Source: a phage
Strand: one strand, 5' to 3'
Sequence record: PZ296778.1
Length of the DNA stretch: 49,526 nt
Of the stretch, positions 5,866 to 48,690 are shown in pieces; positions within the stretch are counted from its first letter, which is position 1; every line of letters begins with the position of its first letter. The position numbers and the translations under genes were made by a program. Under the pieces are notes generated by a model. It searched no databases, was not told where the DNA came from, and saw only the letters and a program-made list of their open reading frames with translations.

Positions 5866-5889
5866 GGCGCTCGCTTGAGCGCCTTTTTT
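5866..5889 (+). terminator. intrinsic terminator
   Basis: GGCGCTC-gctt-GAGCGCC hairpin followed by T6. Confidence 0.75.
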
Positions 5890-5909
5890 ATTATGTAAGG
5901 AGAAATGAA

Positions 5910-35633: not shown

Positions 35634-35653
35634 GTTTTAACAAAAAATGCTAT
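35634..35653 (-). promoter_or_regulatory. conserved intergenic motif copy R4 (variant)
   Basis: GTTTTAACAAAAAATGCTAT on the + strand; forward-oriented relative to the minus-strand early operon. Confidence 0.55.
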
Positions 35654-35770
35654 TCCATACGCTTTACTGTAACCAATAACACACCATCATCATTGCATAA
35701 AACGTGTTCAGTGGTGCTAAAAGCTCGCATATCTGAATAAAGTAGCGTAAGTAAAGCATGAATAAAATCA

Positions 35771-36166
35771 TCATGTGATATTGAATTTACGGCGCAGTGC
35801 TTCAAGATCTTGTCTATTAGCTTTTGCCTGGAACAATTCATCATCGCCCATCTCCCCTATTCTAGCTATATCCCTGATCCAGTCGTTGCGCATACCATCC
35901 AGGCTATACAATTCGAATCCGAAAGGCCGCTTTGACGATCCTTTGGACCAGTATTTTCCGCATACTCCATCTATATAACCAGCCGTCATCATTCTTGCGC
36001 AAAATTCCTTAGATGCAAGGCTGGCGAACATTCGCGGCGTAAGTCCGGCGGCCCGTGCGAGCCGCTCACATTCTCTATGCTGATAGATAAATTTGGCTAT
36101 GTGCTGCCTGTTAAACCAATCGTATGACTCACACCATTTATACAGATCAAGCAAAAACATAATCAT
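35771..36166 (-). CDS. hypothetical protein
   Basis: 131-aa ORF; start overlaps stop of the upstream P-loop gene (ATGA). Confidence 0.45.
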   Translation of the reverse strand: MIMFLLDLYKWCESYDWFNRQHIAKFIYQHRECERLARAAGLTPRMFASLASKEFCARMMTAGYIDGVCGKYWSKGSSKRPFGFELYSLDGMRNDWIRDIARIGEMGDDELFQAKANRQDLEALRRKFNIT

Positions 36167-37854
36167 CCCAGCAGTATTGGATTGACAAAAATAACACCAT
36201 TAATCACACAAACATAATTTCTTTCTTCCAGCATTGGCAGTAAGTGCCCTTCTATCCTTTTCATTACGCCAGCCTGACCAACGAAAGGTTTTACCTTTCT
36301 CGCTGATTCGTACAGGGCGCGGATATTCAGAATCCCTTTATTAGCCTTGCCGTGCCTCGTGATCAATTCAATCAATTTACCCATTTCAGCATCATCACCA
36401 GCATAACCAGAAGCATTGGCGGCGCTAATGTATGTTTTGCTCAATTCCTGAAACATGATCAACGCCTCTTGCATTGTTTCCACGTCGATCTCTTTCGACT
36501 TCTGCGGGTATCCGGCAGGATTAAACCAGTTACGGATAACATGCAGGACGGAAGCAAGCCTGATCACCTGTTTATCCATTTTACCCAGCGCACCGCGTAA
36601 CATTGTATGAGAATACTTTCCTCCGTCTGCAAGATGCGGTTCCATATCCTGGCGAGCAATGTTGAGCACTCGCATAGCTGAACGGCTTATTTTCAGCGAT
36701 ATATTTGATTCGCTCATGATGTTATGCACCAATTGATAATATTGGGCTTTCAATTCAGAATCCACCGCCTCATAGGTAGAATCACCATTTTCATCAATGA
36801 ATGAGCGACGGCCTAAGAATGATTCCTCGCGGACCAACAAAAAACGCTCACTAACACCGATGCCTCGCGATCCAGCGTCCATGATTCCGCTTATCGTTTC
36901 ATCCTGGGCTATAACGCTCATACATCCAAGCGCGCGAAAACTCATATTATTGTCAGCATTAGCGCGGGCAATTGATACGTGACCATTATCCCACGCCTTA
37001 AGCACTAACTCACTGTTAGTCTTCCTTTCGCTATTTGCATAGGTCAAGCCTAACAGACTGTTAATACTTGTTGCTTCATCAGATATTACGGCAAAGTTAC
37101 CTTGCTTGTTGTTGATTTTCGCCAAGCCTTCTGGAGTTGTATCTGAGACAGGAAAAGTTATATCACACATTTTTTCCAGTTTTTCCTCCAGATCCTCTTT
37201 TTCCTGGTATAGAGATTCCATATCAGCGCCGGATCTTTCGCTTTTCATCTCCTTTGCAAGACCTGCCAGCTTTGCCTGTATTTTCTTTCTTTCCTTGCGG
37301 CGTTGCTCGTTGATCTTCTCAACTTCCGCAATCATCGGAGCAATAGCCATGCTGTTGATCGCAGATTTACCAGTTGACGGCGGCTGGCTTGTAACGACGT
37401 AAAGCGCAGTCGGCTGATCGGTTCCGTGATAGTCAACCGTAAAGCGTCCAAGCATAGCGGCAGAAATGCAGCCGATAAAGTGCATGTAAGCCGATGATTC
37501 AGGGAATTGAACGGATCGCGCAATGCTGCGTGATAACTTGCCGACAACATCAATATCATTACCAAGAGAAATAACGGGGTAGCGATCGTGACCGCTATTC
37601 ACATCCGATTCAGGGAATTGAACGGATCGCGCAATGCTGCGTGATAACTTGCCGACAACATCAATATCATTACCAAGAGAAATAACGGGGTAGCGATCGT
37701 GACCGCTATTCACATCCTTTACGTCGCCCCAAAAGCTGGACGACTGGCGATAGCCGTTAGCCTGAATTGATACGCGAACTGGCGAAAGGTTCTGGCTTTC
37801 AGCCATAGCGATTATTTGTTGTGGAGTTAATTTGTTCGTTTCTAATGAAAACAT
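36163..37854 (-). CDS. P-loop NTPase of unknown function (DUF3987-like?)
   Basis: 563 aa; Walker A-like PSTGKS and Walker B-like FAVISDEAT; N-terminus carries a perfect 37-aa tandem duplication; RBS aaggag. Confidence 0.5.
   Translation of the reverse strand: MFSLETNKLTPQQIIAMAESQNLSPVRVSIQANGYRQSSSFWGDVKDVNSGHDRYPVISLGNDIDVVGKLSRSIARSVQFPESDVNSGHDRYPVISLGNDIDVVGKLSRSIARSVQFPESSAYMHFIGCISAAMLGRFTVDYHGTDQPTALYVVTSQPPSTGKSAINSMAIAPMIAEVEKINEQRRKERKKIQAKLAGLAKEMKSERSGADMESLYQEKEDLEEKLEKMCDITFPVSDTTPEGLAKINNKQGNFAVISDEATSINSLLGLTYANSERKTNSELVLKAWDNGHVSIARANADNNMSFRALGCMSVIAQDETISGIMDAGSRGIGVSERFLLVREESFLGRRSFIDENGDSTYEAVDSELKAQYYQLVHNIMSESNISLKISRSAMRVLNIARQDMEPHLADGGKYSHTMLRGALGKMDKQVIRLASVLHVIRNWFNPAGYPQKSKEIDVETMQEALIMFQELSKTYISAANASGYAGDDAEMGKLIELITRHGKANKGILNIRALYESARKVKPFVGQAGVMKRIEGHLLPMLEERNYVCVINGVIFVNPILLG
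37496..37717 (-). repeat. perfect 111-bp in-frame tandem duplication inside the P-loop gene
   Basis: Two identical adjacent 111-bp units (37496-37606 and 37607-37717) encoding a duplicated 37-aa segment. Confidence 0.85.
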
Positions 37855-39317: not shown

Positions 39318-39542
39318 TCAAAACGGAAAACAGCGCGGACAACCAGGATCGAAATCGCATCCACAATCATTAACAATCATAGTGGGATCTGCAAATATTG
39401 CGCTTGATTCAAGATCCATATCCATATCACCTAAAGCCTCATCAAGAGTCTTAATTTTATATGCCACTTCAAGAGCCGCCTCTTTATTTAGTCCGGCATC
39501 TTCTGCCATTTGAAGGCGCTCAAAAAATCCGTCTTGACTCAT
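39318..39542 (-). CDS. acidic Cys-rich small protein
   Basis: 74 aa; highly acidic; C-terminal CGCDFDPGCPRC; immediately upstream of the methyltransferase. Confidence 0.4.
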   Translation of the reverse strand: MSQDGFFERLQMAEDAGLNKEAALEVAYKIKTLDEALGDMDMDLESSAIFADPTMIVNDCGCDFDPGCPRCFPF

Positions 39543-39656
39543 CGCATAATCCCCTTAATAACAGCCAAGATAATAGCCATGCCAGCAGCAGTAACCAAAA
39601 AGCCAACCGCGCCAATAATCGAATAAAAAAAGAAATCAATAGCCTTATCTATCATT
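39540..39656 (-). CDS. small hydrophobic protein (ORF below track threshold)
   Basis: About 38 codons read by eye (MIDKAIDFFFYSIIGAVGFLVTAAGMAIILAVIKGIMR); RBS gaggtg; stop overlaps the next start (ATGA). Coordinates approximate. Confidence 0.3.
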
Positions 39657-39696
39657 TCCACCTCATTTAAAAGGCGGCAAAACGCCGCCATATTAA

Positions 39697-39924
39697 TTAA
39701 AGAGCACGCCAACTTTGAATATAGAAAGCGTTTTCTTCCAGTAATTCTTTTAACTGATCTTTATTGTATTTGCGCACCTTACCGCCTGGATGGATACCAA
39801 TAAGATAGCCGCCTTTGCCCTCGGTGATAGTGATTTGGCTAATTCCACAAGACTTATCAAGTTTTACAGCCACGCGGTGATGAGCGTCAATAGTTGACAT
39901 AATGTTTAAAACTTTTGCTTTCAT
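39697..39924 (-). CDS. hypothetical protein
   Basis: 75-aa ORF followed by a hairpin plus T-run. Confidence 0.4.
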   Translation of the reverse strand: MKAKVLNIMSTIDAHHRVAVKLDKSCGISQITITEGKGGYLIGIHPGGKVRKYNKDQLKELLEENAFYIQSWRAL

Positions 39925-40032
39925 TTAAATATCCTCAATTGAAATATGAATGGCGTCGTGCTCTTTTTCCGTCGCCGCCGTAATGGTCATTTGCAACCGC
40001 TACCATCCAGGCATTTTTGAAAATAAATAGCC

Positions 40033-40245
40033 TCATTTCTTATTTTTCATCTTAAATTTATGGCCTAGAACACCAGCACCAATATAGCCATCGTTGTATT
40101 CCATTAAATAAAGGTGAAGGCCATTATCTGAAATTACATGAGGATCTTCTTTGAGATTTCCCATTAGCGGGTATTCTTTTCCGCGCGTAAATCTCCAAGT
40201 TGAGTCATAAGTTTCTACGCATTTAAGTTTTAATTGCTTTGCCAT
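40033..40245 (-). CDS. hypothetical protein
   Basis: 70-aa ORF; overlapping start/stop with the upstream gene. Confidence 0.4.
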   Translation of the reverse strand: MAKQLKLKCVETYDSTWRFTRGKEYPLMGNLKEDPHVISDNGLHLYLMEYNDGYIGAGVLGHKFKMKNKK

Positions 40246-40442
40246 TAGATGATCTCCATGTATGTTTCAAAGCCATTTAACTTGAACAGGCCGTTTTCAC
40301 ATTTGCGAACGTTCCAAGTTAGCCCTGAGTGGTACGCCTCCATATCATCAAGGTCAATGGTGATTTCAGCACCTTTCTTAAACAAACCTTTTTCGTGAGA
40401 CTTGTCGCGCTTAACAACTTTAACATCAACCTGATTTTCCAT
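40245..40442 (-). CDS. hypothetical protein (first gene of leftward early operon)
   Basis: Start moved to MENQVDV after RBS gagga; the track start at 40565 would read through motif copy R7 and its hairpin. Confidence 0.4.
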   Translation of the reverse strand: MENQVDVKVVKRDKSHEKGLFKKGAEITIDLDDMEAYHSGLTWNVRKCENGLFKLNGFETYMEII

Positions 40443-40496
40443 CTTTAAATCCTCGTTTGTTGTCGATGCGCTTACTATACCAATCAGCAGCGCATC

Positions 40497-40517
40497 GTTT
40501 TTAACAAAAAGTGCTAT
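40497..40517 (-). promoter_or_regulatory. conserved intergenic motif copy R7
   Basis: GTTTTTAACAAAAAGTGCTAT at the head of the leftward early operon; followed on the minus strand by hairpin GATGCGCT...AGCGCATC, RBS and ATG. Confidence 0.6.
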
Positions 40518-40565
40518 TTGACGGTTAGCACCAGGATTGTGATCGAAATAATCAAAAGTAATCAT

Positions 40566-41131
40566 TCGTAATCAAATCGCGTCAAAATGATGATTGCCTT
40601 TGCAAATTTGATGAGAAAAGCAATCACGTTTAATCATTGGTTGCAGGGGAGATAGTGAAACCTTCCCCTCTTGCCTCACTTTTCCGCCTGGCTGTCAGCG
40701 GTTGTTGTCTTTTGTTCACCCCTGTTACCGATTTCAGGCGGCGTGTTTCCGCGCGGTTTTCCGGTGTATCGAAAACGGAAAAAACAAAAAAAATCCTTTA
40801 TAATACATTGAAAATAAAGATTATTTATTTATATATATCTATAATGTTTTCTTTTTGTTCTCACTGTTACAGTGCTTTTTGTTGGGTGTGGTGTTGTTGT
40901 GTGTTGGTATATATGGATAGTTGCGCGCGCGGCGGATTGCATATGTATATATACTTTTTCCGGCGGATTGCGTTAACAGCGTGAACAGAAAAATAACAGC
41001 CCTGAAATCAATAACTTGCGCATGATTTTGTAGTTTTTCGATATTGGTAACGTTTTGAATACAACAAAAACATTGACACGCACCAAATAGCTTTTATAAT
41101 GCGCCAACAGTCAACAACTGGAGGAAAGGAA
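40566..41131. promoter_or_regulatory. AT-rich non-coding control region between divergent early operons
   Basis: About 565 bp; A-tracts shared with 21200-21694, direct repeat CGGCGGATTGC twice, GT-rich tract, consensus promoter at 41073; the track ORF 40637-40984 is judged spurious. Confidence 0.5.
41073..41100 (+). promoter_or_regulatory. consensus sigma70 early promoter for the rightward early gene array
   Basis: -35 TTGACA, 16-bp spacer, -10 TATAAT; A-rich upstream tract; about 30 nt before RBS ggagga and ATG at 41132. Confidence 0.65.
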
Positions 41132-41596
41132 ATGGAACAGAAGACCACTAAGGACTATTGCGATTGGCTTCGCGAACTTGGTCGCCGCCTGGCTAGTGGC
41201 GATATTGAAGAGTATAAAATGTCACTAATTGACCTGGCCGGAATGTTAAGCGGTGACGACTGCTACAAGATCACGCGCAGTTCATCCTACAGCCGGACCA
41301 TTATCAACCGCGTTCCAGAAGTAAGGGCCGCAGGTCGGGTAAGCATCAAGGTAGAGGAAACGGAAGATGATAAATTTTACGTTTTCCGCATGGTCCGCGA
41401 ATCGAAAAGGAAAATCATCACACCCGAAGAATTGCCAGCCATCAAGGCAAGGGCGATCAAAAAGTTTGCCGATCGCATACTGGCAGCAATCCCGAATATC
41501 GTTGACCTGGAAGGGGATAAACTGGCTGGGGCTTGCGAGGGCGTAAGCCGCTACCAGGATATGATCCGCGAAATCATCAAAGAGGAAGAGCAATGA
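41132..41596 (+). CDS. hypothetical protein (first rightward early gene)
   Basis: Start at MEQKTT after RBS ggagga, about 30 nt downstream of a consensus sigma70 promoter. Confidence 0.5.
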   Translation: MEQKTTKDYCDWLRELGRRLASGDIEEYKMSLIDLAGMLSGDDCYKITRSSSYSRTIINRVPEVRAAGRVSIKVEETEDDKFYVFRMVRESKRKIITPEELPAIKARAIKKFADRILAAIPNIVDLEGDKLAGACEGVSRYQDMIREIIKEEEQ

Positions 41597-41865
41597 AAAA
41601 GGCATTAATCAGCGTTTTGGCGGCAATGGCATTCCTGACCGGATGCAAAGAAGATGGCGCGCATGTTGGCAATGTGCAGATGGCTAACCCTGGCGATGAC
41701 TACAGCGTAAGGGAGCTATTCACCGCTGACGGTTGCACCGTTTACCGATTCTATGACGATCGCACTGTTTACTTCACCAACTGCAAGGGCACTACTAGCT
41801 GGGAAGTGTCGAAAAGCAATGGCAAAGGCACGAAGACAGAACATATGACCGTCGAGACAAAATAG
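41593..41865 (+). CDS. lipoprotein
   Basis: Start at MKKALIS (ATGA overlap); signal peptide plus lipobox LTGC; 90 aa; stop TAG is the start of motif copy F5. Confidence 0.55.
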   Translation: MKKALISVLAAMAFLTGCKEDGAHVGNVQMANPGDDYSVRELFTADGCTVYRFYDDRTVYFTNCKGTTSWEVSKSNGKGTKTEHMTVETK

Positions 41866-41881
41866 CACTTTTTGTTAAAAC
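41862..41881 (+). promoter_or_regulatory. conserved intergenic motif copy F5
   Basis: Exact 20-mer; TAG is the lipoprotein stop; followed by hairpin GCCAGGC...GCCTGGC. Confidence 0.65.
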
Positions 41882-41937
41882 GCCAGGCGCAAAGCCTGGC
41901 ATAATAGCCTCATCGAAACGAGATTGAGGAAACAAAA

Positions 41938-42123
41938 ATGGCACGTCGCATCACCAAAGACCTTAAAGTCCTGAACAAAGAAAACGTAGTTAAAATCCTT
42001 GTTATCTGGGGCTACAACGAAGAAACAGCAAAGCAGAAGGTAGAGGCAGGTTATGACCTGGCTGTAAAAGCAATGCCAAACGATGACGCCAAAGGCATTG
42101 CAAACTATGTAGCGTTCTTTTAA
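41938..42123 (+). CDS. hypothetical protein
   Basis: 61-aa ORF preceded by motif, hairpin and RBS gagga. Confidence 0.4.
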   Translation: MARRITKDLKVLNKENVVKILVIWGYNEETAKQKVEAGYDLAVKAMPNDDAKGIANYVAFF

Positions 42124-42138
42124 TTAGCAGGTGAATAG

Positions 42139-42324
42139 ATGAAAACGAAACTAGTCCATAAGTCAGAAATCAAGATCGGCGATACTGTGATTCACAACGG
42201 CGAGCTTAGAACGGTTGGCAAGGAGTCAATAAGCCACGATGAATTTATGGGGATCTTGTTGTTCGGTGACTCTTATCGTCTTGGTTACAAGATGGTTGAG
42301 CTTGTGGAAGAGGTCAAATTCTAA
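42139..42324 (+). CDS. hypothetical protein
   Basis: 61-aa ORF; stop TAA abuts motif copy F6. Confidence 0.4.
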   Translation: MKTKLVHKSEIKIGDTVIHNGELRTVGKESISHDEFMGILLFGDSYRLGYKMVELVEEVKF

Positions 42325-42344
42325 ATAGCACTTTTTGTTAAAAC
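42325..42344 (+). promoter_or_regulatory. conserved intergenic motif copy F6
   Basis: Exact 20-mer immediately after stop TAA. Confidence 0.65.
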
Positions 42345-42422
42345 TCGAAAACGATAACCAGGCATAATAAATCACATAGGGCGGCACGGCGTCGCCCACA
42401 AAACCAATCAGGAGAAAGCACC

Positions 42423-43316
42423 ATGTTAAAACTTGCTGACATTAAATTCCCGATCACCTTCGAATCTCGCGGCATTGGTCATTACATTTTTACCGATGAA
42501 AAAACATGCCATAAGGTTGATATGAATAGCGACAAACTAAGCCCATCAGACATGGAGATTGAACACTTTATTGATGCGCACAATACGCAGTACAACGCAC
42601 TTAAAGACTATGGCTATGCAATGCCAGGATATACCAGCTTCCACTACAAGCCATATAAAGGCCAGGTGTTGCCAGTGCGCTCACCGGAACGCGCAGAGAT
42701 TCCGATGGTCGAGATGAAAACATGCGACTATAAAAAGCTGTGGTGCTTAAGTGTTGACAATATCAAGTATCCGATCACGTTCTACACGGTTGGTAATTCA
42801 ACGATTCGATTCACATCGCGCGACAATGGCGTTTATAGCGATGGTACGAAATCAGAGTTGAAAGTTGATTTCTTTGTCAACGGTCACAATAGATACAATC
42901 CGCACAACGAAAAAGATAAAGTGTATTACGTGGAAGATATTACAAAACACTTATTTGGAGAAACTCCATTCGGCGGCGGTAAGACGTCAATTCAAAAAAT
43001 CATTGGCGATGAGATCCACAAAGCGGCTGCCGAAATGAAAGCGCCTGGAGGCTGGCGTATTGACAAGAGCGCCTTTGCCTATCAAGAAATCGTAACGCAG
43101 GGCGCAATTGAAGATATGCCAGTTGCAGCCACGCTAAAAGGAGTCCGGCTTGATGACGGCACCTGGTATGAAGTAACGGCTACGCCAAAGACGATCGAGA
43201 TTCATGATGACGTTGTTATCCTTCTGCTTCACTACGGCGGCTATAAAAACCGGACGATTGCAGGTGAGATCAGCATTAAGCGCGGAACGATGGTTAAGTG
43301 GAAGGTCAAAGTGTAA
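42423..43316 (+). CDS. hypothetical protein with internal domain duplication
   Basis: 297 aa; two related segments (LADIKFPITFESRGIGHYIFTD / VDNIKYPITFYTVGNSTIRFTS); RBS ggaga. Confidence 0.5.
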   Translation: MLKLADIKFPITFESRGIGHYIFTDEKTCHKVDMNSDKLSPSDMEIEHFIDAHNTQYNALKDYGYAMPGYTSFHYKPYKGQVLPVRSPERAEIPMVEMKTCDYKKLWCLSVDNIKYPITFYTVGNSTIRFTSRDNGVYSDGTKSELKVDFFVNGHNRYNPHNEKDKVYYVEDITKHLFGETPFGGGKTSIQKIIGDEIHKAAAEMKAPGGWRIDKSAFAYQEIVTQGAIEDMPVAATLKGVRLDDGTWYEVTATPKTIEIHDDVVILLLHYGGYKNRTIAGEISIKRGTMVKWKVKV

Positions 43317-43336
43317 ATAGCACGAATTGTTAAAAC
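43317..43336 (+). promoter_or_regulatory. conserved intergenic motif copy F7 (variant)
   Basis: ATAGCACGAATTGTTAAAAC after stop TAA; followed by hairpin GTGGGGCC...GGCCCCAC. Confidence 0.6.
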
Positions 43337-43389
43337 TCAAATGTGGGGCCAGGTATAATGGCCCCACTTTCAACGAAGGAGATAAAACG

Positions 43390-43611
43390 ATGTACATTAA
43401 AAAGAAGATGAAATGCATTTCCGTTAACTATGCTTGCTCTGGCATGTTCAATCCTGGCGAAATCTATACGGCGCAAAAACTGAAATCATCAACCGGATCT
43501 TTTTACGTGAGCAATAGTAAGGGGCATCGCATGTTCCTGAACGGCGGCGAAGGCACTAAGGTTATGGCACACGCTATGGTAATGGCTGAATTTGAGGAAG
43601 TGAAACAATGA
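43390..43611 (+). CDS. hypothetical small protein, paralog A
   Basis: Start at MYIKKK after RBS aaggag; shares FxPGxxY...FYLNG...AEFEE pattern with the next ORF. Confidence 0.45.
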   Translation: MYIKKKMKCISVNYACSGMFNPGEIYTAQKLKSSTGSFYVSNSKGHRMFLNGGEGTKVMAHAMVMAEFEEVKQ

Positions 43612-43853
43612 TCATTGAAAACAATTTTCTTTGCGTTAAGAGCAATAGACCATTCTTCACGCCTGGCAAGGTGTACCAGGGCAAGAAGGACACAAGAGAT
43701 GGTCACTCTTATCATGTTCACTGCAACAACGGATACAAGTTTTACCTTAACGGCGAGAATGGAACAGAGATCGTTGCGTTTGAAAACGTAGTTGCCGAGT
43801 TTGAGCAGATTACAGACGCGGAATTTGAGGAAGTGAAAGATGAAAACAAATAA
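43608..43853 (+). CDS. hypothetical small protein, paralog B
   Basis: 81 aa; ATGA overlap with paralog A. Confidence 0.45.
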   Translation: MIIENNFLCVKSNRPFFTPGKVYQGKKDTRDGHSYHVHCNNGYKFYLNGENGTEIVAFENVVAEFEQITDAEFEEVKDENK

Positions 43854-44061
43854 GCGCGTCAAGCACAGGTTTACTGATAACCACGGCGACGCGATTGATG
43901 TATACAAGTTTGGCGATCGAGTTTTTATTGATGGCACGTTTGAAGGTGGGCGTAGGCCGGATTTTAGGTCGATACTTACCGTTGACCAAGTGCGCAAGCT
44001 GGCAGATAAGTTAAATGATCTGGCAGATGAAATAGAATACAAGCAAATCCATTTTAATTGA
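43840..44061 (+). CDS. hypothetical protein
   Basis: 73-aa ORF overlapping the upstream stop. Confidence 0.4.
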   Translation: MKTNKRVKHRFTDNHGDAIDVYKFGDRVFIDGTFEGGRRPDFRSILTVDQVRKLADKLNDLADEIEYKQIHFN

Positions 44062-44072
44062 TAGGTTTTATA

Positions 44073-44612
44073 ATGAAAAAATACACTTTCGAACTATGGG
44101 GCAAGAAGTACGAATTAATCACCAGCAAGCCGATTGTTATCGTTGACCTGGACGGCACACTATCGGACGGATCGCATCGTTTGCATTTGCTGCCAACTGA
44201 AAACTTGCACCTTACGGAATCGTGGAGCGAATTTAACAGGGCCGCCGCCGGAGATTCACCGATTAAAAGCACGATCGCGGTTATTAACGGTTTGTGGGTG
44301 TCGGGATTTGCCATCGTCATCTTGACCGGACGCAGCGACGAGGTGCGCTATGAAACCTGCAAATGGTTGAATGAGAGCGGCGTGAAGTTTGACGAAATCA
44401 TCATGCGCCGCCAGGAGGACAACCGAAAGGATACGGTTATTAAAGAAGAAGCCTTGCGCGCTATTGGCCTGGAAAATATTGTTTGCGCCTTTGACGATTC
44501 GCCGAACGTTGTTAAGCACTTCCGCAGCCTGGGAATCACAACCTATCAGGTCACGGAATACGACAAGCCGCACGCTCACCTGCAATCTCACGGCGTGGAG
44601 TGTTTAAAATGA
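44073..44612 (+). CDS. HAD-superfamily phosphatase (polynucleotide 3'-phosphatase / nucleotidase-like)
   Basis: HAD motif I VDLDGTL, motif II VILTGR, motif IV AFDDSPNVV; start at MKKYTF (track start is TTG). Confidence 0.55.
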   Translation: MKKYTFELWGKKYELITSKPIVIVDLDGTLSDGSHRLHLLPTENLHLTESWSEFNRAAAGDSPIKSTIAVINGLWVSGFAIVILTGRSDEVRYETCKWLNESGVKFDEIIMRRQEDNRKDTVIKEEALRAIGLENIVCAFDDSPNVVKHFRSLGITTYQVTEYDKPHAHLQSHGVECLK

Positions 44613-44770
44613 CTTGGTTGCTTTTAATCTTTGTCACAAGTTACAACTCCGCAGCTATTGAGTCGCAGGAGTTCCACGGCGAATCAAGATGCCAGGAAGC
44701 GCGAAAGCAAGTTGTTCTCCACATGTCAGATAGTGGGAAGGATGTAACAGCGTTATGCGTTCGTAAATAG
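44609..44770 (+). CDS. small membrane protein (ORF below track threshold)
   Basis: About 53 codons read by eye (MTWLLLIFVTSYNSAAIES...); ATGA overlap with HAD gene stop; stop TAG is part of motif copy F8. Coordinates approximate. Confidence 0.3.
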   Translation: MTWLLLIFVTSYNSAAIESQEFHGESRCQEARKQVVLHMSDSGKDVTALCVRK

Positions 44771-44787
44771 CACTTTTTGCAAAAAAC
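44767..44787 (+). promoter_or_regulatory. conserved intergenic motif copy F8 (variant)
   Basis: ATAGCACTTTTTGCAAAAAAC; followed by hairpin GGGCTT...AAGCCC and RBS. Confidence 0.55.
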
Positions 44788-44842
44788 AGATCATCGGGCT
44801 TGCTGTATAGTAAGCCCATCAACAACAAACGAGGATTAAATC

Positions 44843-45106
44843 ATGGCTAACAAGATCGAGTTTTTTAAAGCTGTAGACATTATCGACGGCGCGCCTAGCT
44901 TCTTTGCTATCCATTCTATTGACGGCAATGATATTGGGTACAACGTTATCCGTCGAGATGGAATATCAAAAATTAGTGACCTGGTAGGCCATATTGTGTC
45001 AAACGGGAAATGCGCATGGCCCGATTCGCCACGAGAGCCGCGCCGCCGCGACATGGTAGAGCCTGTTCTGCTTTACACTCTGGTAGTAGAGGGAGAAAAT
45101 AAATGA
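44843..45106 (+). CDS. hypothetical protein
   Basis: 87-aa ORF preceded by motif, hairpin and RBS gagga. Confidence 0.4.
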   Translation: MANKIEFFKAVDIIDGAPSFFAIHSIDGNDIGYNVIRRDGISKISDLVGHIVSNGKCAWPDSPREPRRRDMVEPVLLYTLVVEGENK

Positions 45107-45288
45107 TTTTGTTACTTGCTTTTTTGGTTGTTTTTCTTTACATTTCAGGCTTATTCACGTTCCGCGCGTTTGTGAAATATTCTGGCACGACAGACAAGGA
45201 CGATAAAATCGTTCTCGCTTTCTGGTTTGTTTGGGTGTGGTTAGCAATTTACGAGATCATCAGAGACAAACAGAAATTTGAGTGGTGA
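45103..45288 (+). CDS. small membrane protein (two predicted TM helices)
   Basis: 61 aa; two hydrophobic segments; ATGA overlap with upstream gene. Confidence 0.4.
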   Translation: MILLLAFLVVFLYISGLFTFRAFVKYSGTTDKDDKIVLAFWFVWVWLAIYEIIRDKQKFEW

Positions 45289-45347
45289 TTCTTGCTATGG
45301 CGCATTCATGCAGTGCGCCATGTTGAGAAAACCTAAAGGGGGAGACG

Positions 45348-45497
45348 ATGCGTAACTTTGAAAAAATCATTACCAAAAAGAAGCGTCGCGGGTACGATGA
45401 GCATGTGGAGCTTGTGAAAAAGCAACGCAAGAAGCGCAACGAAGACAAGAAGCGCGGGAAAAAATTTAATGCGATTTTTCGCTATGGAGATCATTAA
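45348..45497 (+). CDS. small basic protein (ORF below track threshold)
   Basis: About 49 codons read by eye (MRNFEKIITKKKRRGYDEHVELVKKQRKKRNEDKKRGKKF...); RBS aaagggggag; ends just before the kinase start. Coordinates approximate. Confidence 0.35.
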   Translation: MRNFEKIITKKKRRGYDEHVELVKKQRKKRNEDKKRGKKFNAIFRYGDH

Positions 45498-45499
45498 TC

Positions 45500-46090
45500 A
45501 TGAAACGAGACATTATCATCCTTAATGGGCCGCCAGGTTGCGGGAAGGACACTATTGCAGCTTACCTAACGGGCCATCGTTACCCAGCGGTTAAGGCGTC
45601 ATTCAAACAGCCGATGTTCGATATTGCGTTTTCCATGCTTGGCCCGACTCGATATGATGAGTTTATTGACCTGTACAACGACCGAGATCAAAAAGAAAAG
45701 CCTCAAGTTATCTTAGGCGGCAAGTCACCTCGACAATTCATGATCTGGATTAGCGAGGATGTAATGAAGCCAGTCTTTGGGGATCACTATTTCGGGCGTC
45801 GAATGGTTGAAGAGATTCACGAGATGTACCGAGATTTAGCGGTTGTGATCAGCGATGGAGGATTCCCCGAAGAAGTCAAGCCGCTTGTTAAGGCAGGGCA
45901 TGAGGTGCATATTTGCCGATTGCATCGCGACGGCTTCACGTTTGCTGGCGATTCGAGAGACTACATTGACCTGAGCGGTTATCACTATCGAATCCATCAC
46001 TATGACTTCCACTTGCAGGACGGCAAGCCGGAACTGGCTGTAAGCGAGATCGTCAATGCAGTCAAATGGAAGCACACACAGATTAAATAG
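45500..46090 (+). CDS. P-loop kinase, dNMP-kinase-like
   Basis: 196 aa; Walker A GPPGCGKDT with GKDT as in T4-type dNMP kinases; stop TAG is part of motif copy F9. Confidence 0.5.
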   Translation: MKRDIIILNGPPGCGKDTIAAYLTGHRYPAVKASFKQPMFDIAFSMLGPTRYDEFIDLYNDRDQKEKPQVILGGKSPRQFMIWISEDVMKPVFGDHYFGRRMVEEIHEMYRDLAVVISDGGFPEEVKPLVKAGHEVHICRLHRDGFTFAGDSRDYIDLSGYHYRIHHYDFHLQDGKPELAVSEIVNAVKWKHTQIK

Positions 46091-46105
46091 CACGAATTGC
46101 TAAAC
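46087..46105 (+). promoter_or_regulatory. conserved intergenic motif copy F9 (variant)
   Basis: ATAGCACGAATTGCTAAAC; its TAG is the kinase stop codon. Confidence 0.55.
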
Positions 46106-46160
46106 GCGGGGCGCAATGCCTCGCTATAATGCAAACACCAATCAACGAGAGGAAACAATC

Positions 46161-46562
46161 ATGGTGGAGTTAAACGACATTCGCGTTGGAACAAAATTTC
46201 GCGTAACCTGGGCAGATAAATATTGTGGCGTTAGCAAGGGCCAGGTTGTTGCGGTGGATAGTATTTATCGTGGTGTTAGTGGTGACTTTCGCCGTCCGCG
46301 CATCAATAATGGCTATATCATTACTCGCCGTATTGGCTTTGATAATTATTGCGTAGTGGCGACTCAAGGAGTTTTGATTGAGCTTAAGAGAATCAGCGAT
46401 CATCGCGGTCGTCATGTTAAGGCAATGAAAACACCATTTCAGCGAGCGAGATACGATGCGCGACGTATGCGCCGACTTGCGCGAAATGCGATCAAGTTCA
46501 AAAAGCCTGGCGATGATTTTTACGGCATGTATAAGGGGATTGCTCGCAATGCTGGGAAATAA
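46161..46562 (+). CDS. hypothetical protein
   Basis: Start at MVELND after RBS gagagga (track start 46116 lacks an RBS); basic C-terminal half. Confidence 0.45.
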   Translation: MVELNDIRVGTKFRVTWADKYCGVSKGQVVAVDSIYRGVSGDFRRPRINNGYIITRRIGFDNYCVVATQGVLIELKRISDHRGRHVKAMKTPFQRARYDARRMRRLARNAIKFKKPGDDFYGMYKGIARNAGK

Positions 46563-46680
46563 CAATAACGCAACGAATCCTAAGCCACCTTTTGATTTTC
46601 ATTCCGCAATGATTGCGGTATTATCAATGCTACTTTTTCTTTATAGCATGAGGGCGCTACTATGGTTTTTAACGCATTGA
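46549..46680 (+). CDS. small membrane protein (putative)
   Basis: 43-aa ORF from an internal Met of the track ORF 46456-46680; hydrophobic C-terminus; overlaps upstream stop. Uncertain. Confidence 0.3.
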   Translation: MLGNNNNATNPKPPFDFHSAMIAVLSMLLFLYSMRALLWFLTH

Positions 46681-46910
46681 AACGACTGTTTAAGCCGGAA
46701 TACCGGATCGTATTTTGCCGAGACTGTTCTACTTATCATGTGCAGCGACGCAGCTTAGGCGGCAATTGGCACTATGTTACAGATGACTTTTTCGGCATCA
46801 TTGCCACTGAATTTAAGTGTTATAGCGATGCTTATATGTACGTCAAGAAGCGCCACCGCTTACGCAAGTGTCGTTTTTCCGCACTGATTCACTTTAATGA
46901 TTGTTACTGA
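46662..46910 (+). CDS. hypothetical Cys-rich protein
   Basis: 82 aa with CRDC...C...C pattern. Confidence 0.4.
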   Translation: MVFNALKRLFKPEYRIVFCRDCSTYHVQRRSLGGNWHYVTDDFFGIIATEFKCYSDAYMYVKKRHRLRKCRFSALIHFNDCY

Positions 46911-46917
46911 GGTGAAA

Positions 46918-47100
46918 ATGAAAACTGGTGTTATTATTCTTTTTCTGATCCTTTTCGGCAGCCATTTAACCATTAACTATGAGGGCATTATGGCCTTTTG
47001 GGGCAACTTGATGATGTTTGCCGCTGGTTCAATTGCTGGCTACTCTGACGGGAAAAAGGATGGTGTGCGCAAGATGCTGATGGGGCTTAAACAAAAATAA
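46918..47100 (+). CDS. small membrane protein
   Basis: Start at MKTGVIILF after RBS gaggtg; two hydrophobic segments. Confidence 0.4.
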   Translation: MKTGVIILFLILFGSHLTINYEGIMAFWGNLMMFAAGSIAGYSDGKKDGVRKMLMGLKQK

Positions 47101-47111
47101 GGGGATATGAA

Positions 47112-47402
47112 ATGGCAAACAAAACTTACCGCAAACTACTGGTTAACGCTTTTGAAAACATCGCGCAGTGTAACAAGTGGAACGACTCTAAACACTCGCC
47201 AATCACAATGAAGCGCGCCGGATTCAAAAATGCTCGTTCATGGGCGCGAGCTTTCGCAGCTTGCTATATGCCGGATGGCGGACTAGGGGTGATGAACGAT
47301 TTTTTGATCAACATGATAGAGGAAGCGGCGCGAGAGGATCGACCGCTGACACAGCGAGATTTTGACGGCTTCGCGCGCGATGAGCTTTACTATCTGAGCT
47401 AA
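47112..47402 (+). CDS. hypothetical protein
   Basis: 96-aa ORF; stop TAA abuts motif copy F10. Confidence 0.45.
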   Translation: MANKTYRKLLVNAFENIAQCNKWNDSKHSPITMKRAGFKNARSWARAFAACYMPDGGLGVMNDFLINMIEEAAREDRPLTQRDFDGFARDELYYLS

Positions 47403-47421
47403 TAGCACTTTTTGTTAAAAC
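47402..47421 (+). promoter_or_regulatory. conserved intergenic motif copy F10
   Basis: Exact 20-mer after stop TAA; followed by hairpin AAGGGCA...TGCCCTT. Confidence 0.65.
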
Positions 47422-47477
47422 TTCCGCAAGGGCATTTGGTAAAGTGCCCTTATTGAAGCGAAACAGAGGAAAGCGCA

Positions 47478-47690
47478 ATGAAAATCAAAATCACCAAAAT
47501 CGACACTATCAACGGCGACGGATCAATCACTCTTGAGCAATGTGGCTTGGTTGTTGGTGATGTGCTGGAAGTTGACGGACATTTCAGCGACGGATCTTAT
47601 TGTGTTATTGCGCCGCGTAACAGCGAGTTTATCAAGGCTGGCGACAATATTAGTGTTAACCATGACGAATGCGAGGTAGTAGAAGAATGA
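47478..47690 (+). CDS. hypothetical protein
   Basis: 70-aa acidic ORF preceded by motif, hairpin and RBS. Confidence 0.4.
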   Translation: MKIKITKIDTINGDGSITLEQCGLVVGDVLEVDGHFSDGSYCVIAPRNSEFIKAGDNISVNHDECEVVEE

Positions 47691-47950
47691 TCACGATTAA
47701 CCTGTCAGAGCAGCAAGCGCGCATTATATTAGCTGCCTTTGGCTGGCGAGATGATGACGGCATCCAGGCAACGGTTAAAATTCCTGAGCCAGTGGCGCGT
47801 GAAGTTTTCAGCCAGCTAGAACACGCATTTGATCCTGCTGGCACTGAGCAAGCGGAAACTGCCGCATGGTTCGGAGAGAACGGATACAGAGATCAGCAAG
47901 TCGAAAACTGGAAGCGCATAAACGAGACTATGGAGGAATCAGGTTTATGA
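47687..47950 (+). CDS. hypothetical protein
   Basis: Start at MITINLS (ATGA overlap). Confidence 0.4.
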   Translation: MITINLSEQQARIILAAFGWRDDDGIQATVKIPEPVAREVFSQLEHAFDPAGTEQAETAAWFGENGYRDQQVENWKRINETMEESGL

Positions 47951-48261
47951 TTTATATTCACTACTACCAAATAGGAACTAACGAGAACAAGAAAGAGCAT
48001 CGTTTCATCCATGATGATTTGGACAAGGCAAAGGCACAGCAACAGGTTTTAGGCGGTGTCATTCAGGCTTTTGAGCCTGTAGAAGATATTGAGTACCGCG
48101 AGCATTTAAAAGATGTTGTTATTGATGAGATCTCTTGCTTGATTGATGATATGACAAATCACGGCCCTGGTTCCCCGTGGGAAGATGCAGGATCTGTAAC
48201 GTGGGATAAGGCCAAAGTTAAGACGCTAAACAACTTTCGAGAGATTCTCGACGGTTTTTAA
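47947..48261 (+). CDS. hypothetical protein
   Basis: Start at MIYIHYY (ATGA overlap). Confidence 0.4.
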   Translation: MIYIHYYQIGTNENKKEHRFIHDDLDKAKAQQQVLGGVIQAFEPVEDIEYREHLKDVVIDEISCLIDDMTNHGPGSPWEDAGSVTWDKAKVKTLNNFREILDGF

Positions 48262-48330
48262 TTAAAAACGCATAGCCGTTAGAGCGCCTAAATCGCATTC
48301 TAACGAGCTATTTTTCTGGTAAGGTGATTT

Positions 48331-48459
48331 AATGGATGAGTACAAACAACCCTCGCAATGGTGCAAAGAGAAGCAGGAGGAAGCACTTGAGCGCGGAGAT
48401 GTAGAAGAAGCTATGAACTATTTCAAACTTGCGGAAGAATGGAAGGGGAGAGGATACTG
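48331..48459 (+). CDS. small protein (ORF below track threshold)
   Basis: About 42 codons read by eye (MDEYKQPSQWCKEKQEEALERGDVEEAMNYFKLAEEWKGRGY); RBS aaggtg; stop overlaps the next start. Coordinates approximate. Confidence 0.3.
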
Positions 48460-48690
48460 ATGTTCGGCATGAACGAGGCGCAATTCAACGCAGCTAAACG
48501 CCAGGCTAAAAAGTGCGGCGAGGCAATGAAAGCGGATGTGGAAAAGCGCGGGAAGTATGTTGATGAAGTAATGAAGGGCATCATTGCAGAACACTACCAG
48601 CCAATCGCGCCAATGTTGACGATCACTCAATTCATTTGGCTATGTGGTTACTTGCGCGGACGTTGGGGGAACGCTTTCGACAGGGAATGA
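48460..48690 (+). CDS. hypothetical protein
   Basis: Start at MFGMNEAQ, coupled to the upstream small ORF. Confidence 0.4.
   Translation: MFGMNEAQFNAAKRQAKKCGEAMKADVEKRGKYVDEVMKGIIAEHYQPIAPMLTITQFIWLCGYLRGRWGNAFDRE

What the first reader, a model, noticed from the sequence alone, without database searches (positions are those of the whole stretch)
39540..48459. Several plausible small genes below the 60-aa threshold of the ORF track
By eye there are additional short ORFs with RBSs and translational coupling: about 39540-39656 (-, hydrophobic), 44609-44770 (+, hydrophobic N-terminus, stop on a motif TAG), 45348-45497 (+, highly basic) and 48331-48459 (+). The ORF 35650-35844 (-) also ends on a motif TAG but overlaps the 3' end of 35771-36166. 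Small membrane and basic proteins are typical host-takeover factors and are often missed.
Basis: seen in the sequence. Interest (0 to 1): 0.4.

Follow-up and report, generated by a model that had tools for sequence, protein, structure and literature searches.

The report
Small conserved genes of a T1-like phage
The short open reading frames flagged in this T1-like coliphage genome are genuine, evolutionarily conserved small protein genes, but every one is already annotated in closely related phages and their functions remain unknown, so the finding is correct but ordinary.

Summary
The window is almost a whole genome of a Warwickvirus (Drexlerviridae, T1-like), 99% identical to Escherichia phage tinuso. 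All four flagged short ORFs and the fifth, overlapping one exist as described; two coordinates are off by one base. True coordinates: A 39539-39655(-), B 44609-44770(+), C 45348-45497(+), D 48332-48460(+), E 35650-35844(-).

Each has a Shine-Dalgarno sequence and, except E, start/stop coupling to a neighbour. Each stays open at nearly the same length in another genus and shows a significant excess of synonymous change in its own frame only.

They are not missed genes. All five exact protein sequences are in public collections, and B, C and D are annotated in tinuso.

- D belongs to the T7 gene 1.8 family (phrog_1312) and is a predicted helical hairpin.
- C is a remote relative of T7 gp1.1.
- B belongs to the T1 gp69 family; it has a hydrophobic N-terminus and two invariant cysteines.
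- A is a 38-aa single-pass membrane protein limited to two genera.
- E is found in 690 phage records. It shares a conserved 74-nt dual-coding overlap with the upstream gene and is unannotated in the T1 reference.

Two more small genes (F, G) were found. The host-takeover role is untested.

The parts
39539..39655 (-). ORF A: 38-aa single-pass membrane protein (MIDKAIDFFFYSIIGAVGFLVTAAGMAIILAVIKGIMR), the short form
   Evidence: SD GAGGTGG and an ATGA overlap with the downstream gene. Intact at 37-38 aa in Warwickvirus and Hanrivervirus. The longer 50/57-aa forms are excluded by in-frame stops upstream in 5 relatives. tblastn hits in 64 phage records, most aligning only from residue 12 of the 50-aa form. 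pN/pS 0.50, P=0.015. Kyte-Doolittle 2.41 over residues 13-31. Annotated as 117 nt in PeterMerian, vB_EcoS-95 and atuna. Absent from T1 and Klebsiella K50. No PHROG match.
39673..39689 (-). Terminator-like hairpin GGCGGCGTTTTGCCGCC + TTTT immediately upstream of A's ribosome-binding site
   Evidence: Hanrivervirus relatives carry a different hairpin sequence (GGGAGG...CCTCCC + T-run) at the same place.
39318..39542 (-). 74-aa acidic, Cys-rich protein translationally coupled to A (phrog_9323)
   Evidence: Homologues are T1 ST6 and Klebsiella K50.
44609..44770 (+). ORF B: 53-aa protein with a short hydrophobic N-terminus and two invariant Cys (C28, C50); T1 gp69 family (phrog_5579)
   Evidence: ATGA overlap with the PNK stop; its own stop is the motif TAG. 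phrog_5579 at 3.1e-9; T1 ST69 hits the same PHROG at 1.6e-26; hhalign 77%, E 1.9e-5. 51 phage records. pN/pS 0.25, P=1.8e-7. Cys and the QEF..SRC..AR core are invariant in Tlsvirus and Salmonella-phage relatives. One cluster member is named 'Secreted protein' by UniRef. Annotated as tinuso_21.
44073..44612 (+). Polynucleotide kinase/phosphatase gene whose stop overlaps B's start
45348..45497 (+). ORF C: 49-aa highly basic protein, a remote relative of T7 gp1.1
   Evidence: SD GGGGGAG; stop 2 nt before the dNMP kinase ATG. Pfam PF08200 Phage_1_1 at 18.4 bits against a cut-off of 21. PF08200 is the top Pfam hit for all 15 family members, best 3.6e-5. hhalign against T7 gp1.1: 77%, E 2e-5, with MRNFEK shared. 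70 phage records. pN/pS 0.49, P=2.9e-3. Annotated as tinuso_24.
45500..46090 (+). P-loop dNMP kinase gene immediately downstream of C
48332..48460 (+). ORF D: 42-aa acidic helical-hairpin protein, T7 gene 1.8 family (phrog_1312; relatives carry PF26839)
   Evidence: phrog_1312 at 1.5e-17. T7 gp1.8 (6.3e-15) and Vi06 gp1.8 (4e-20) hit the same PHROG. Pairwise E 1e-11 to Vi06 and 1e-7 to T7. 343 phage records, including T7-like phages. 7-8 synonymous and 0 non-synonymous changes against three Warwickvirus relatives. P=3.7e-5 against damhaus. AlphaFold pLDDT 84, helices 7-21 and 24-39. Annotated as tinuso_33.
48460..48690 (+). 76-aa protein (phrog_303) whose ATG overlaps D's stop (TGATG)
35650..35844 (-). 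ORF E: 64-aa protein (phrog_9539), found throughout the Drexlerviridae relatives searched; overlaps the upstream gene by 74 nt
   Evidence: phrog_9539 at 7e-26. 690 phage records. pN/pS 0.20, P=2e-11. The 74-nt overlap is conserved in Warwickvirus, Hanrivervirus and Klebsiella phage, and is 89 nt in T1. E's third codon positions are 75-79% identical to the Hanrivervirus relatives inside the overlap and 35-40% outside it. E is retained in BEK1-23, where an HNH gene replaces the upstream neighbour. Annotated in PeterMerian.
35771..36166 (-). 131-aa protein (phrog_2794, labelled 'YdbL' in some records) whose last 74 nt are also read in E's frame
46549..46680 (+).
   Evidence: Annotated in Tuinin, PeterMerian, KarlJaspers and vB_EcoS-95. 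Intact in both genera. pN/pS 0.38, P=2.6e-3. Kyte-Doolittle 2.0 over residues 20-38.
39935..40036 (-).
   Evidence: phrog_32259 at 3e-20. pN/pS 0.20, P=1.7e-5. Annotated in Tuinin and PeterMerian. Carries a nonsense codon in slyngel.
44767..44785 (+). Copy of the repeated motif ATAGCACTTTTTGCAAAAA; its TAG is B's stop codon
35635..35653 (-). Copy of the repeated motif ATAGCATTTTTTGTTAAAA; its TAG is E's stop codon

Best explanation
The flagged ORFs are real, independently translated small protein genes in the two divergent non-structural (presumed early) gene blocks of a Warwickvirus, a T1-like coliphage.

Shown:
- Each has its own Shine-Dalgarno sequence.
- A, B, C and D are start/stop-coupled to a neighbouring gene.
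- Each frame is kept open and is under purifying selection across genera.
- All are already annotated as hypothetical proteins in relatives.

Inferred protein classes:
- A is a 38-aa single-pass inner-membrane protein. Positive charges at the C-terminus suggest an N-out/C-in topology, and the helix is Gly/Ala-rich. It is made together with the acidic Cys-rich 74-aa protein that follows it.
- B (T1 gp69 family) most likely carries a Sec-type signal peptide. The roughly 37-aa mature peptide would be held by one disulfide (C28-C50) and act in the periplasm.
- C is a gp1.1-like, highly basic peptide. It probably binds nucleic acid or an acidic host factor, and is made just ahead of the dNMP kinase.
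- D is a gp1.8-family, TPR-like two-helix hairpin that probably acts by binding another protein.
- E is a 64-aa soluble protein found in all Drexlerviridae relatives searched. It is translated from its own start inside the 3' end of the upstream gene.

None of the biochemical functions is known. A role as accessory host-interaction factors is an inference from size, position and variable presence between relatives.
For: Identity of the phage.

Annotation in relatives. The exact sequences are in public collections.

Family assignments: phrog_5579 (B), phrog_1312 (D), phrog_9539 (E), a weak phrog_8176 and PF08200 (C).

ORF integrity across genera.

Selection: NG86 dN/dS is 0.08-0.67. The synonymous excess is frame-specific, with P from 1.5e-2 to 2e-11, and shifted frames are non-significant and contain stops.

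Coding potential: a 3-periodic Markov model trained on the window's long genes ranks the proposed frame best of six for every candidate.

RBS and coupling are conserved in relatives.

Specific points:
- E's dual-coding overlap.
- D's structure: pLDDT 84, helical hairpin.
- B's invariant cysteines and variable but always hydrophobic N-terminus.
- Negative control.
Against: There is no direct expression evidence. I found no ribosome profiling or proteomics of Drexlerviridae non-structural proteins.

A has the weakest selection signal (pN/pS 0.5, P=0.015) and no PHROG or Pfam family.

B, E, F and G score between spurious ORFs and long genes in the composition model.

A terminator-like hairpin sits directly upstream of A, so its transcription would need read-through.

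B's signal peptide lacks a positively charged n-region. The T1 homologue has no obvious AxA cleavage site.

C is below Pfam's gathering score and is not in T7 gp1.1's PHROG.

The AlphaFold model of E is unreliable, at pLDDT 55.
Confidence: 0.9

Rival explanations
1. The ORFs are chance open frames in non-coding spacers that hold promoters, terminators and other regulatory elements. Their conservation would then reflect constraint on DNA or RNA signals, not on proteins.
For: The ORFs sit in short gaps next to repeated promoter-like cassettes and hairpins. A 38-64 codon open frame is not rare by chance. B, E, F and G have only intermediate composition scores.
Against: Substitutions are concentrated at synonymous sites of the proposed frame only, and shifted frames are non-significant and contain stops. 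Against three Warwickvirus relatives D shows 7-8 synonymous and 0 non-synonymous changes. Length and start/stop positions are conserved at 60-79% nucleotide identity. HMM families exist for B, C, D and E, and reach other subfamilies and T7-like phages. A truly non-coding ORF in the same genome, 40637-40984, fails the same test.
Confidence: 0.03
2. ORF A is really the longer 50-aa protein (ATG at 39691, as annotated in Tuinin, EC125 and KMB46) or the 57-aa protein (TTG at 39712).
For: The frame is open upstream in the window and in Tuinin. 50-aa versions exist in public annotation.
Against: vB_EcoS-95, PeterMerian, atuna, SECphi27 and tinuso have in-frame stops just upstream of the short start. 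The extension would be translated from the terminator hairpin. Hanrivervirus homologues start at the equivalent short ATG. The strong SD precedes the short start. 38 of 64 tblastn hits align only from residue 12.
Confidence: 0.05
3. ORF E is not an independent gene. It would be reached by a programmed +1 frameshift from the upstream phrog_2794 gene, giving a fusion protein. That would explain the conserved 74-nt overlap.
For: The overlap length is conserved across three genera, and is 89 nt in T1. E lies in the +1 frame relative to the upstream gene (window coordinates: 36166-35844 = 322, remainder 1).
Against: E has its own conserved ATG preceded by GGGGAG or GGAGAA. The upstream protein's C-terminal tail (..ELF....ANRQ..E.LRRKFN.T) is itself conserved up to its own stop. 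E is retained, with a new N-terminus, in BEK1-23, where an HNH endonuclease gene replaces the upstream gene. No slippery motif was identified.
Confidence: 0.05
4. B is not secreted. Its short hydrophobic N-terminus would be a buried helix or strand of a small cytoplasmic protein, or an uncleaved membrane-associated segment, and the two cysteines would bind a metal or stay reduced.
For: The n-region has no positive charge. The hydrophobic run is only about 9-12 residues. The T1 homologue has 'SKGPDH' after it, with no AxA-like site. No signal-peptide predictor was available.
Against: The N-terminal segment varies in sequence but stays hydrophobic, while the downstream part is conserved. This is the usual pattern for signal peptides. 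S-A-A precedes the conserved part in Warwickvirus and Hanrivervirus. There are exactly two invariant Cys. One member is named 'Secreted protein' in UniRef.
Confidence: 0.35

Closest known systems
Annotated hypothetical proteins of Escherichia phage tinuso (tinuso_21, _24, _33; MN850634) and PeterMerian/Bas05 (bas05_0045, _0053, _0066, _0076; MZ501101)
   Same: Same genes at the same positions with identical or near-identical sequences.
   Different: Nothing of substance. tinuso lacks an annotation for A, whose start there is GTG, and lacks G and F.
Bacteriophage T7 gene 1.8 protein family (T7 NP_041968, Vi06 gp1.8, T3 P20312; phrog_1312)
   Same: D matches the same PHROG profile as T7 and Vi06 gp1.8. 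It shares the W-C...Y/F...W..RG pattern, the 42-48 aa size and a predicted helical hairpin. The function is unknown in both, and the gene is non-essential in T7 (PMC9825161; note).
   Different: The host phage is a T1-like siphovirus, not a podovirus. The gene context differs: in T7, 1.8 lies between the nucleotide kinase 1.7 and the RNAP inhibitor gene 2, whereas here D precedes a phrog_303 protein. No other T7 class II protein has a homologue in the window.
Bacteriophage T7 gene 1.1 protein (Pfam PF08200 Phage_1_1)
   Same: Identical N-terminal MRNFEK, very basic composition and 42-49 aa size. In both phages the stop lies 1-2 nt before the start of the next gene. PF08200 is the best Pfam hit for all 15 members of C's family.
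   Different: C scores below Pfam's gathering threshold (18.4 against 21 bits). Similarity is confined to about the first 19 residues. T7 gp1.1 is in phrog_2490, whereas C hits phrog_8176 only weakly. The downstream gene is a dNMP kinase here and the dGTPase inhibitor 1.2 in T7.
Coliphage T1 gene product 69 (ST69, YP_003875; phrog_5579)
   Same: B and ST69 match the same PHROG. Both are about 50 aa with a hydrophobic N-terminus and two aligned cysteines.
   Different: Only about 22% identity in the hhalign alignment. In T1 the gene follows ST70, not the polynucleotide kinase.
Small hydrophobic early proteins of other lytic coliphages (for example T7 gp1.4 and gp1.5)
   Same: A and F are, like these, very small single-helix hydrophobic products of early or middle operons with no known function (one search shows the T7 sequences; the analogy itself is from general knowledge).
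   Different: No sequence similarity. This is an analogy only.

Membership tests
T7 gene 1.8 protein family (phrog_1312 / PF26839) - ORF D | Significant match to the family profile that also captures bona fide T7-group gp1.8 proteins | tested here: met
   D hits phrog_1312 at 1.5e-17. T7 gp1.8 hits it at 6.3e-15 and Vi06 gp1.8 at 4e-20. Near-identical relatives of D carry a precomputed PF26839 assignment.
T7 gene 1.8 protein family (phrog_1312 / PF26839) - ORF D | Direct pairwise similarity over most of the length, with the shared W-C ... W-x-x-R-G motif | tested here: met
   BLASTP E 1e-11 to Vi06 gp1.8 (41% identity over 39 aa) and 1e-7 to T7 gp1.8.
T7 gene 1.8 protein family (phrog_1312 / PF26839) - ORF D | Gene position between nucleotide kinase 1.7 and RNAP inhibitor gene 2 | tested here: not met
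   D lies between 47947-48261 and a phrog_303 gene. No gp1.7 or gp2 homologue is in the window. Synteny is not part of the sequence-family definition.
T7 gene 1.1 protein family (Pfam PF08200) - ORF C | Score at or above Pfam's gathering threshold (21 bits) | tested here: not met
   18.4 bits, E 0.003.
T7 gene 1.1 protein family (Pfam PF08200) - ORF C | Consistent best-family assignment across C's own relatives, and profile-level similarity to T7 gp1.1 | tested here: met
   15 of 15 members have PF08200 as top hit, best 3.6e-5. hhalign probability 77%, E 2e-5 over 19 columns.
T7 gene 1.1 protein family (Pfam PF08200) - ORF C | Same PHROG as T7 gp1.1 (phrog_2490) | tested here: not met
   T7 gp1.1 hits phrog_2490 at 8.7e-19. 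C hits only phrog_8176, at 0.003.
T1 gp69 family (phrog_5579) - ORF B | Match to the profile that contains T1 ST69; two conserved cysteines; hydrophobic N-terminus | tested here: met
   B at 3.1e-9 and T1 ST69 at 1.6e-26. Cysteines aligned.
Sec-type signal peptide - ORF B | Positively charged n-region, hydrophobic h-region of 7-15 residues, small residues at -3 and -1 | tested here: inconclusive
   The h-region (WLLLIFV) and S-A-A are present, but the n-region carries no charge. The T1 homologue lacks an AxA-like site. No dedicated predictor was available.
phrog_9539 - ORF E | Full-length match to the family profile | tested here: met
   7e-26 over residues 5-64. The T1 homologue scores 1.3e-31. 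690 phage records by tblastn.
Single-pass membrane protein - ORF A | One hydrophobic stretch of about 19-21 residues with flanking charges | tested here: met
   Kyte-Doolittle mean 2.41 over residues 13-31, with K34 and R38 on the C-terminal side. vB_EcoS-95's record notes a TM domain by Phobius and TMHMM for the homologue. Membrane insertion itself is not testable here.
Tetratricopeptide (TPR) repeat - ORF D | Match to TPR profiles; helix-turn-helix of about 34 aa | tested here: inconclusive
   No Pfam TPR hit at E<=1. Weak sequence match to designed consensus TPR proteins (E 0.004). Foldseek PDB hits include TPR proteins, but all have E>1. This is a resemblance only.

The most novel reading that the evidence does not exclude
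Two of these mini-proteins, C (gp1.1-like) and D (gp1.8 family), belong to families shared between T7-like podoviruses and T1-like siphoviruses. These phages otherwise have unrelated early programmes.

The most novel reading not excluded is that they are portable effectors aimed at conserved host targets:
- C would be a basic peptide that helps shut off host gene expression, as hinted for T7 gp1.1 co-expressed with Ocr (PMC7064336).
- D would be a one-repeat TPR-like hairpin that blocks a host protein or a defence system.
- A, B and F would be envelope-targeted accessory factors.
Probability: 0.2. Interest if true: 0.5.

Novelty: already known. Interest (0 to 1): 0.15.

Why it matters
It matters mainly for annotation quality. 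A 60-aa ORF cut-off hides at least seven real genes in 14 kb of this genome, while a 115-aa ORF that passes the cut-off (40637-40984) is probably spurious.

Minor additions beyond existing annotation:
- The correct 38-aa form of A is settled against the 50-aa form used in some records.
- D is linked explicitly to T7 gene 1.8, and C (weakly) to T7 gene 1.1.
- E is shown to occur throughout the Drexlerviridae relatives searched and to share a conserved 74-nt dual-coding overlap with the upstream gene. Its homologue is missing from the T1 reference annotation.

None of this answers a long-standing question. The functions of these small proteins remain open and would need experiments.

Tried and rejected
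- Word-indexed homologue searches for B, C and D returned only close Tempevirinae relatives and no informative names.
- NCBIfam gave no hit for any of the seven proteins. Pfam gave only the sub-threshold PF08200 for C and a chance-level hit for E.
- PDB sequence searches found nothing for B and E, a chance-level ribosomal protein hit for C, and weak consensus-TPR matches for D.
- The AlphaFold model of E was too poor to search (pLDDT 55).
- Foldseek of the D model against PDB gave only unspecific helical-hairpin matches (E>1). Against BFVD it recovered only uncharacterised small proteins, mostly of T7-like phages.
- tblastn of all T7 and Vi06 class II small proteins against the window found only gp1.8/D. 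gp1.1/C was top-ranked but weak.
- A similarity between T7 Gp2 and the 74-aa protein downstream of A (E 0.68) was rejected as chance.
- The generic sigma-70 promoter and terminator scan was not enriched over shuffles.
- Literature searches found no transcriptomic, ribosome-profiling or proteomic data on Drexlerviridae non-structural genes and no function for gp1.8.
- The name 'translocation/assembly module TamB' attached to A in some records was rejected as an annotation artefact for a 38-aa hydrophobic peptide.
- The search of protein representatives was not used, because at these lengths distant relatives would fall below its significance threshold.

Full report
**What the window is.** A 10-kb query from the region hits 266 phage records. 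The best is Escherichia phage tinuso (MN850634) at 99.1% identity over 99% of the query. tinuso is a Warwickvirus (Drexlerviridae, Tempevirinae), a T1-like siphovirus of about 51 kb. The 49.5-kb window is therefore nearly a whole genome. The flagged region covers the two divergently transcribed blocks of mostly small non-structural genes: leftward from about 40565 and rightward from about 41100.

**Checking the observation.** All five ORFs exist.

|---|---|---|---|
| A | 39539-39655(-) | 38 aa | one base off |
| B | 44609-44770(+) | 53 aa | exact |
| C | 45348-45497(+) | 49 aa | exact |
| D | 48332-48460(+) | 42 aa | one base off |
| E | 35650-35844(-) | 64 aa | exact |

Each has a Shine-Dalgarno sequence 2-9 nt upstream of its ATG.

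- A's stop overlaps the next start (ATGA).
- B's start overlaps the polynucleotide kinase stop (ATGA).
- C ends 2 nt before the dNMP kinase ATG.
- D's stop overlaps the next ATG (TGATG).

The 'motif TAG' is also real. B and E end on the TAG of a repeated element, ATAGCACTTTTTGTTAAAA, which has at least 17 copies oriented with local transcription.

The physico-chemical descriptions hold.

**Are they genes?** I fetched the homologous regions of 14 Drexlerviridae genomes and located each ORF by tblastn.

- Every candidate is intact, with the same start and the same or nearly the same length, in Warwickvirus and in the sister genus Hanrivervirus at 60-79% nucleotide identity. E is also intact in a Klebsiella phage and in T1.
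- Nei-Gojobori dN/dS against Hanrivervirus is 0.37-0.67 (A), 0.13-0.15 (B), 0.15-0.23 (C), 0.14-0.30 (D) and 0.08-0.09 (E).
- Against three Warwickvirus relatives, D shows 7-8 synonymous and no non-synonymous differences.
- In a frame control, the synonymous excess is significant only in the proposed frame. Fisher P is 1.5e-2, 1.8e-7, 2.9e-3, 3.7e-5 and 2.1e-11 for A to E. The two shifted frames are non-significant and carry 2-10 stops.
- A 3-periodic Markov model trained on the window's 33 long ORFs ranks the proposed frame best of six for every candidate. A, C and D score like real genes; B and E score between real and spurious.
- As a negative control, the 115-aa ORF 40637-40984 in the large intergenic region is broken by stops in atuna and PeterMerian.

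**They are not missed genes.** B, C and D are tinuso_21, _24 and _33, each with a pVOG assignment. A (as 117 nt), E, C and D are annotated in the BASEL phage PeterMerian. A is also annotated in vB_EcoS-95, with a note of a predicted TM domain, and in atuna. All exact protein sequences are already in public collections. D's sequence occurs on 664 contigs and C's on 385.

Both pass the same tests:
- F, 46549-46680(+), 43 aa, with a C-terminal TM segment.
- G, 39935-40036(-), 33 aa, phrog_32259.

**ORF A.** Some records annotate a 50-aa form starting in the terminator hairpin. This is excluded. Five relatives have in-frame stops directly upstream of the short ATG. Hanrivervirus homologues start at the equivalent ATG. 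Most tblastn hits align only from residue 12 of the 50-aa form.

A is a hydrophobic helix (Kyte-Doolittle 2.41 over residues 13-31) with K34 and R38 at the C-terminus. By the positive-inside rule this implies N-out/C-in.

It is confined to Warwickvirus and Hanrivervirus, with 64 records. It is absent from T1 and a Klebsiella relative, where its two neighbours are adjacent. It has no PHROG or Pfam family.

A terminator-like hairpin lies immediately upstream. Hanrivervirus has a different hairpin sequence at the same place. Expression therefore presumably depends on read-through.

**ORF B.** B matches phrog_5579 (3.1e-9). T1's annotated 49-aa gp69 matches the same family at 1.6e-26, and hhalign gives 77% probability with both cysteines aligned.

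In distant relatives (Tlsvirus and a Salmonella phage, 37-39% identity) three things hold:
- The N-terminal segment differs in sequence but stays hydrophobic.
- The core QEF..SRC..AR..V..H is conserved.
- Both cysteines are invariant.

This pattern, the S-A-A before the conserved part, and a UniRef name 'Secreted protein' for one member favour a cleaved signal peptide and a disulfide-bonded periplasmic mini-protein. The uncharged n-region and the T1 sequence leave that open.

The slot after the kinase is variable. SECphi27, atuna and slyngel carry an unrelated acidic 59-63-aa protein there (phrog_11551), and in vB_EcoS-95 that protein is fused to the kinase.

**ORF C.** Its best Pfam match is PF08200, 'Bacteriophage 1.1 protein', at 18.4 bits, below the 21-bit cut-off.

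I read T7 gp1.1 from the T7 record. It shares the N-terminal MRNFEK and the basic character. Pairwise E is 4e-4 and hhalign gives 77% at E 2e-5 over 19 columns. All 15 members of C's family have PF08200 as their best Pfam hit.

T7 gp1.1 falls in a different PHROG, so I call C 'gp1.1-like', not a member.

The C-terminal half varies between relatives. T7 gp1.1 has no known function. One paper notes that co-expressing it with Ocr effectively shut down host protein synthesis (PMC7064336).

**ORF D.** D matches phrog_1312 at 1.5e-17. tblastn finds it in 343 phage records, including T7-like phages in which the hit is annotated as gene 1.8.

T7 gp1.8 and Vi06 gp1.8 match the same PHROG and align with D at E 1e-7 and 1e-11. 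D is therefore a member of the gene 1.8 family.

AlphaFold predicts a two-helix hairpin at pLDDT 84. Fold searches give two results:
- PDB: only unspecific TPR-like hairpins, all with E>1.
- BFVD: uncharacterised small proteins, mostly of T7-like phages, among them T3 gene 1.8.

A weak sequence match to designed consensus TPR proteins (E 0.004) fits a single TPR-like repeat.

The family's function is unknown, and gene 1.8 is regarded as non-essential in T7 (PMC9825161; PMC4283147). No other T7 class II protein has a homologue in the window.

**ORF E.** E matches phrog_9539 at 7e-26 and occurs in 690 phage records, including Klebsiella, Escherichia, Shigella and Salmonella phages.

Its 74-nt overlap with the upstream phrog_2794 gene is conserved in Warwickvirus, Hanrivervirus and a Klebsiella phage, and is 89 nt in T1. 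Both reading frames are conserved in the overlap. Against the Hanrivervirus relatives, E's third codon positions are 75-79% identical inside it and 35-40% outside it. This is the signature of dual coding.

E has its own SD and ATG. It survives in BEK1-23, where a homing endonuclease gene replaces the upstream gene. This argues for independent initiation rather than frameshifting.

The T1 reference genome has an intact but unannotated homologue at 44002-44202(-).

**Mechanism.**

Shown:
- These are conserved coding sequences with ribosome-binding sites.
- A to D are coupled to neighbours.
- They lie in compact operons in which repeated promoter-like cassettes abut the stop codons.

Inferred:
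- A and F insert in the inner membrane.
- B is exported.
- C binds nucleic acid or an acidic partner.
- D binds a protein partner.

Speculative: they serve host takeover or counter-defence. The patchy distribution of A, B and C among close relatives fits accessory roles. E's presence throughout the family suggests a more basic role next to the helicase module.

**Verdict.** The gene interpretation is right but already known, and the functional interpretation is untested. Interest is low.

Noticed in passing
window: + strand 2093, 27270, 28832, 31321, 32392, 41862, 42325, 43317, 44767, 47402 (and a weaker copy near 46087); - strand 6736, 10490, 21267, 35653, 37926, 38600, 40517: A 19-nt motif, ATAGCACTTTTTGTTAAAA, has at least 17 copies with 4 or fewer mismatches, always oriented with local transcription. 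About 19 nt further on lies a TATAAT-like hexamer, and often a conserved CATCGAAACGA leader. The space between usually holds a GC-rich hairpin that either ends at the -10 hexamer or carries it in its loop. Upstream genes typically stop on or just before the motif's TAG. It looks like a phage-specific promoter cassette with an embedded stem-loop, but the generic sigma-70 scan does not pick most copies up.
   Followed up: partly
window 37496-37717 (-strand gene 36163-37854): A perfect 111-nt tandem duplication (2 x 37 aa, in frame) lies inside the helicase-like DUF3987 gene. The gene is 1692 nt here against 1581-1584 nt in all relatives examined. It could be a real recent duplication or an assembly artefact.
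   Followed up: no
window 40637-40984 (+): A 115-aa ORF in the 530-bp divergent intergenic region is annotated in vB_EcoS-95 as a hypothetical protein with two predicted transmembrane domains. It is interrupted by stops in atuna and PeterMerian, so it is probably not a gene, although it passes a 60-aa cut-off.
   Followed up: yes
L009 (T1, NC_005833) 44002-44202 (-): The T1 reference genome has an intact 66-aa homologue of ORF E (phrog_9539, 1.3e-31). It overlaps the 3' end of ST10 and is not annotated in the record.
   Followed up: yes
window 44609-44770; L004 11234-11425; L015 10863-11054; L013 10710-11420: The slot after the polynucleotide kinase holds alternative cargo: ORF B in some phages, and an unrelated acidic 59-63-aa protein (phrog_11551) in others. 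In vB_EcoS-95 the latter is fused in frame to the kinase, giving a 237-aa product.
   Followed up: partly
window 45348-45497 and 46549-46680; proteins P0008, P0086: A metagenomic protein (P0008, 77 aa) joins the N-terminal half of C to the C-terminal part of F. This implies a deletion of the dNMP kinase region between two short similar stretches (..MLHNIN.. / MLGNNNN..). Phage tuinn annotates a 172-aa protein in F's cluster; from its length I infer a fusion of the 133-aa gene 46161-46562 with F, whose sequence was not examined.
   Followed up: no
L005 (slyngel) 5878-5976 (-): ORF G carries a premature stop codon (TAG at codon 10) in Salmonella phage slyngel, so it is dispensable in at least one relative.
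   Followed up: no
window 39432-39488 (-), within gene 39318-39542: The 74-aa acidic protein coupled to A shares EV....K.TLDEAL with T7 Gp2, the RNA polymerase inhibitor (9 of 19 identical, E 0.68). This is not significant and was treated as chance.
   Followed up: partly
window 47687-47950 (+): This gene is 30 nt longer than in tinuso (264 against 234 nt) and matches the PeterMerian and atuna length. It is one of the few indels relative to the closest relative, besides a larger replacement in the leftward block (window 40245-40565 against tinuso_8-11).
   Followed up: no
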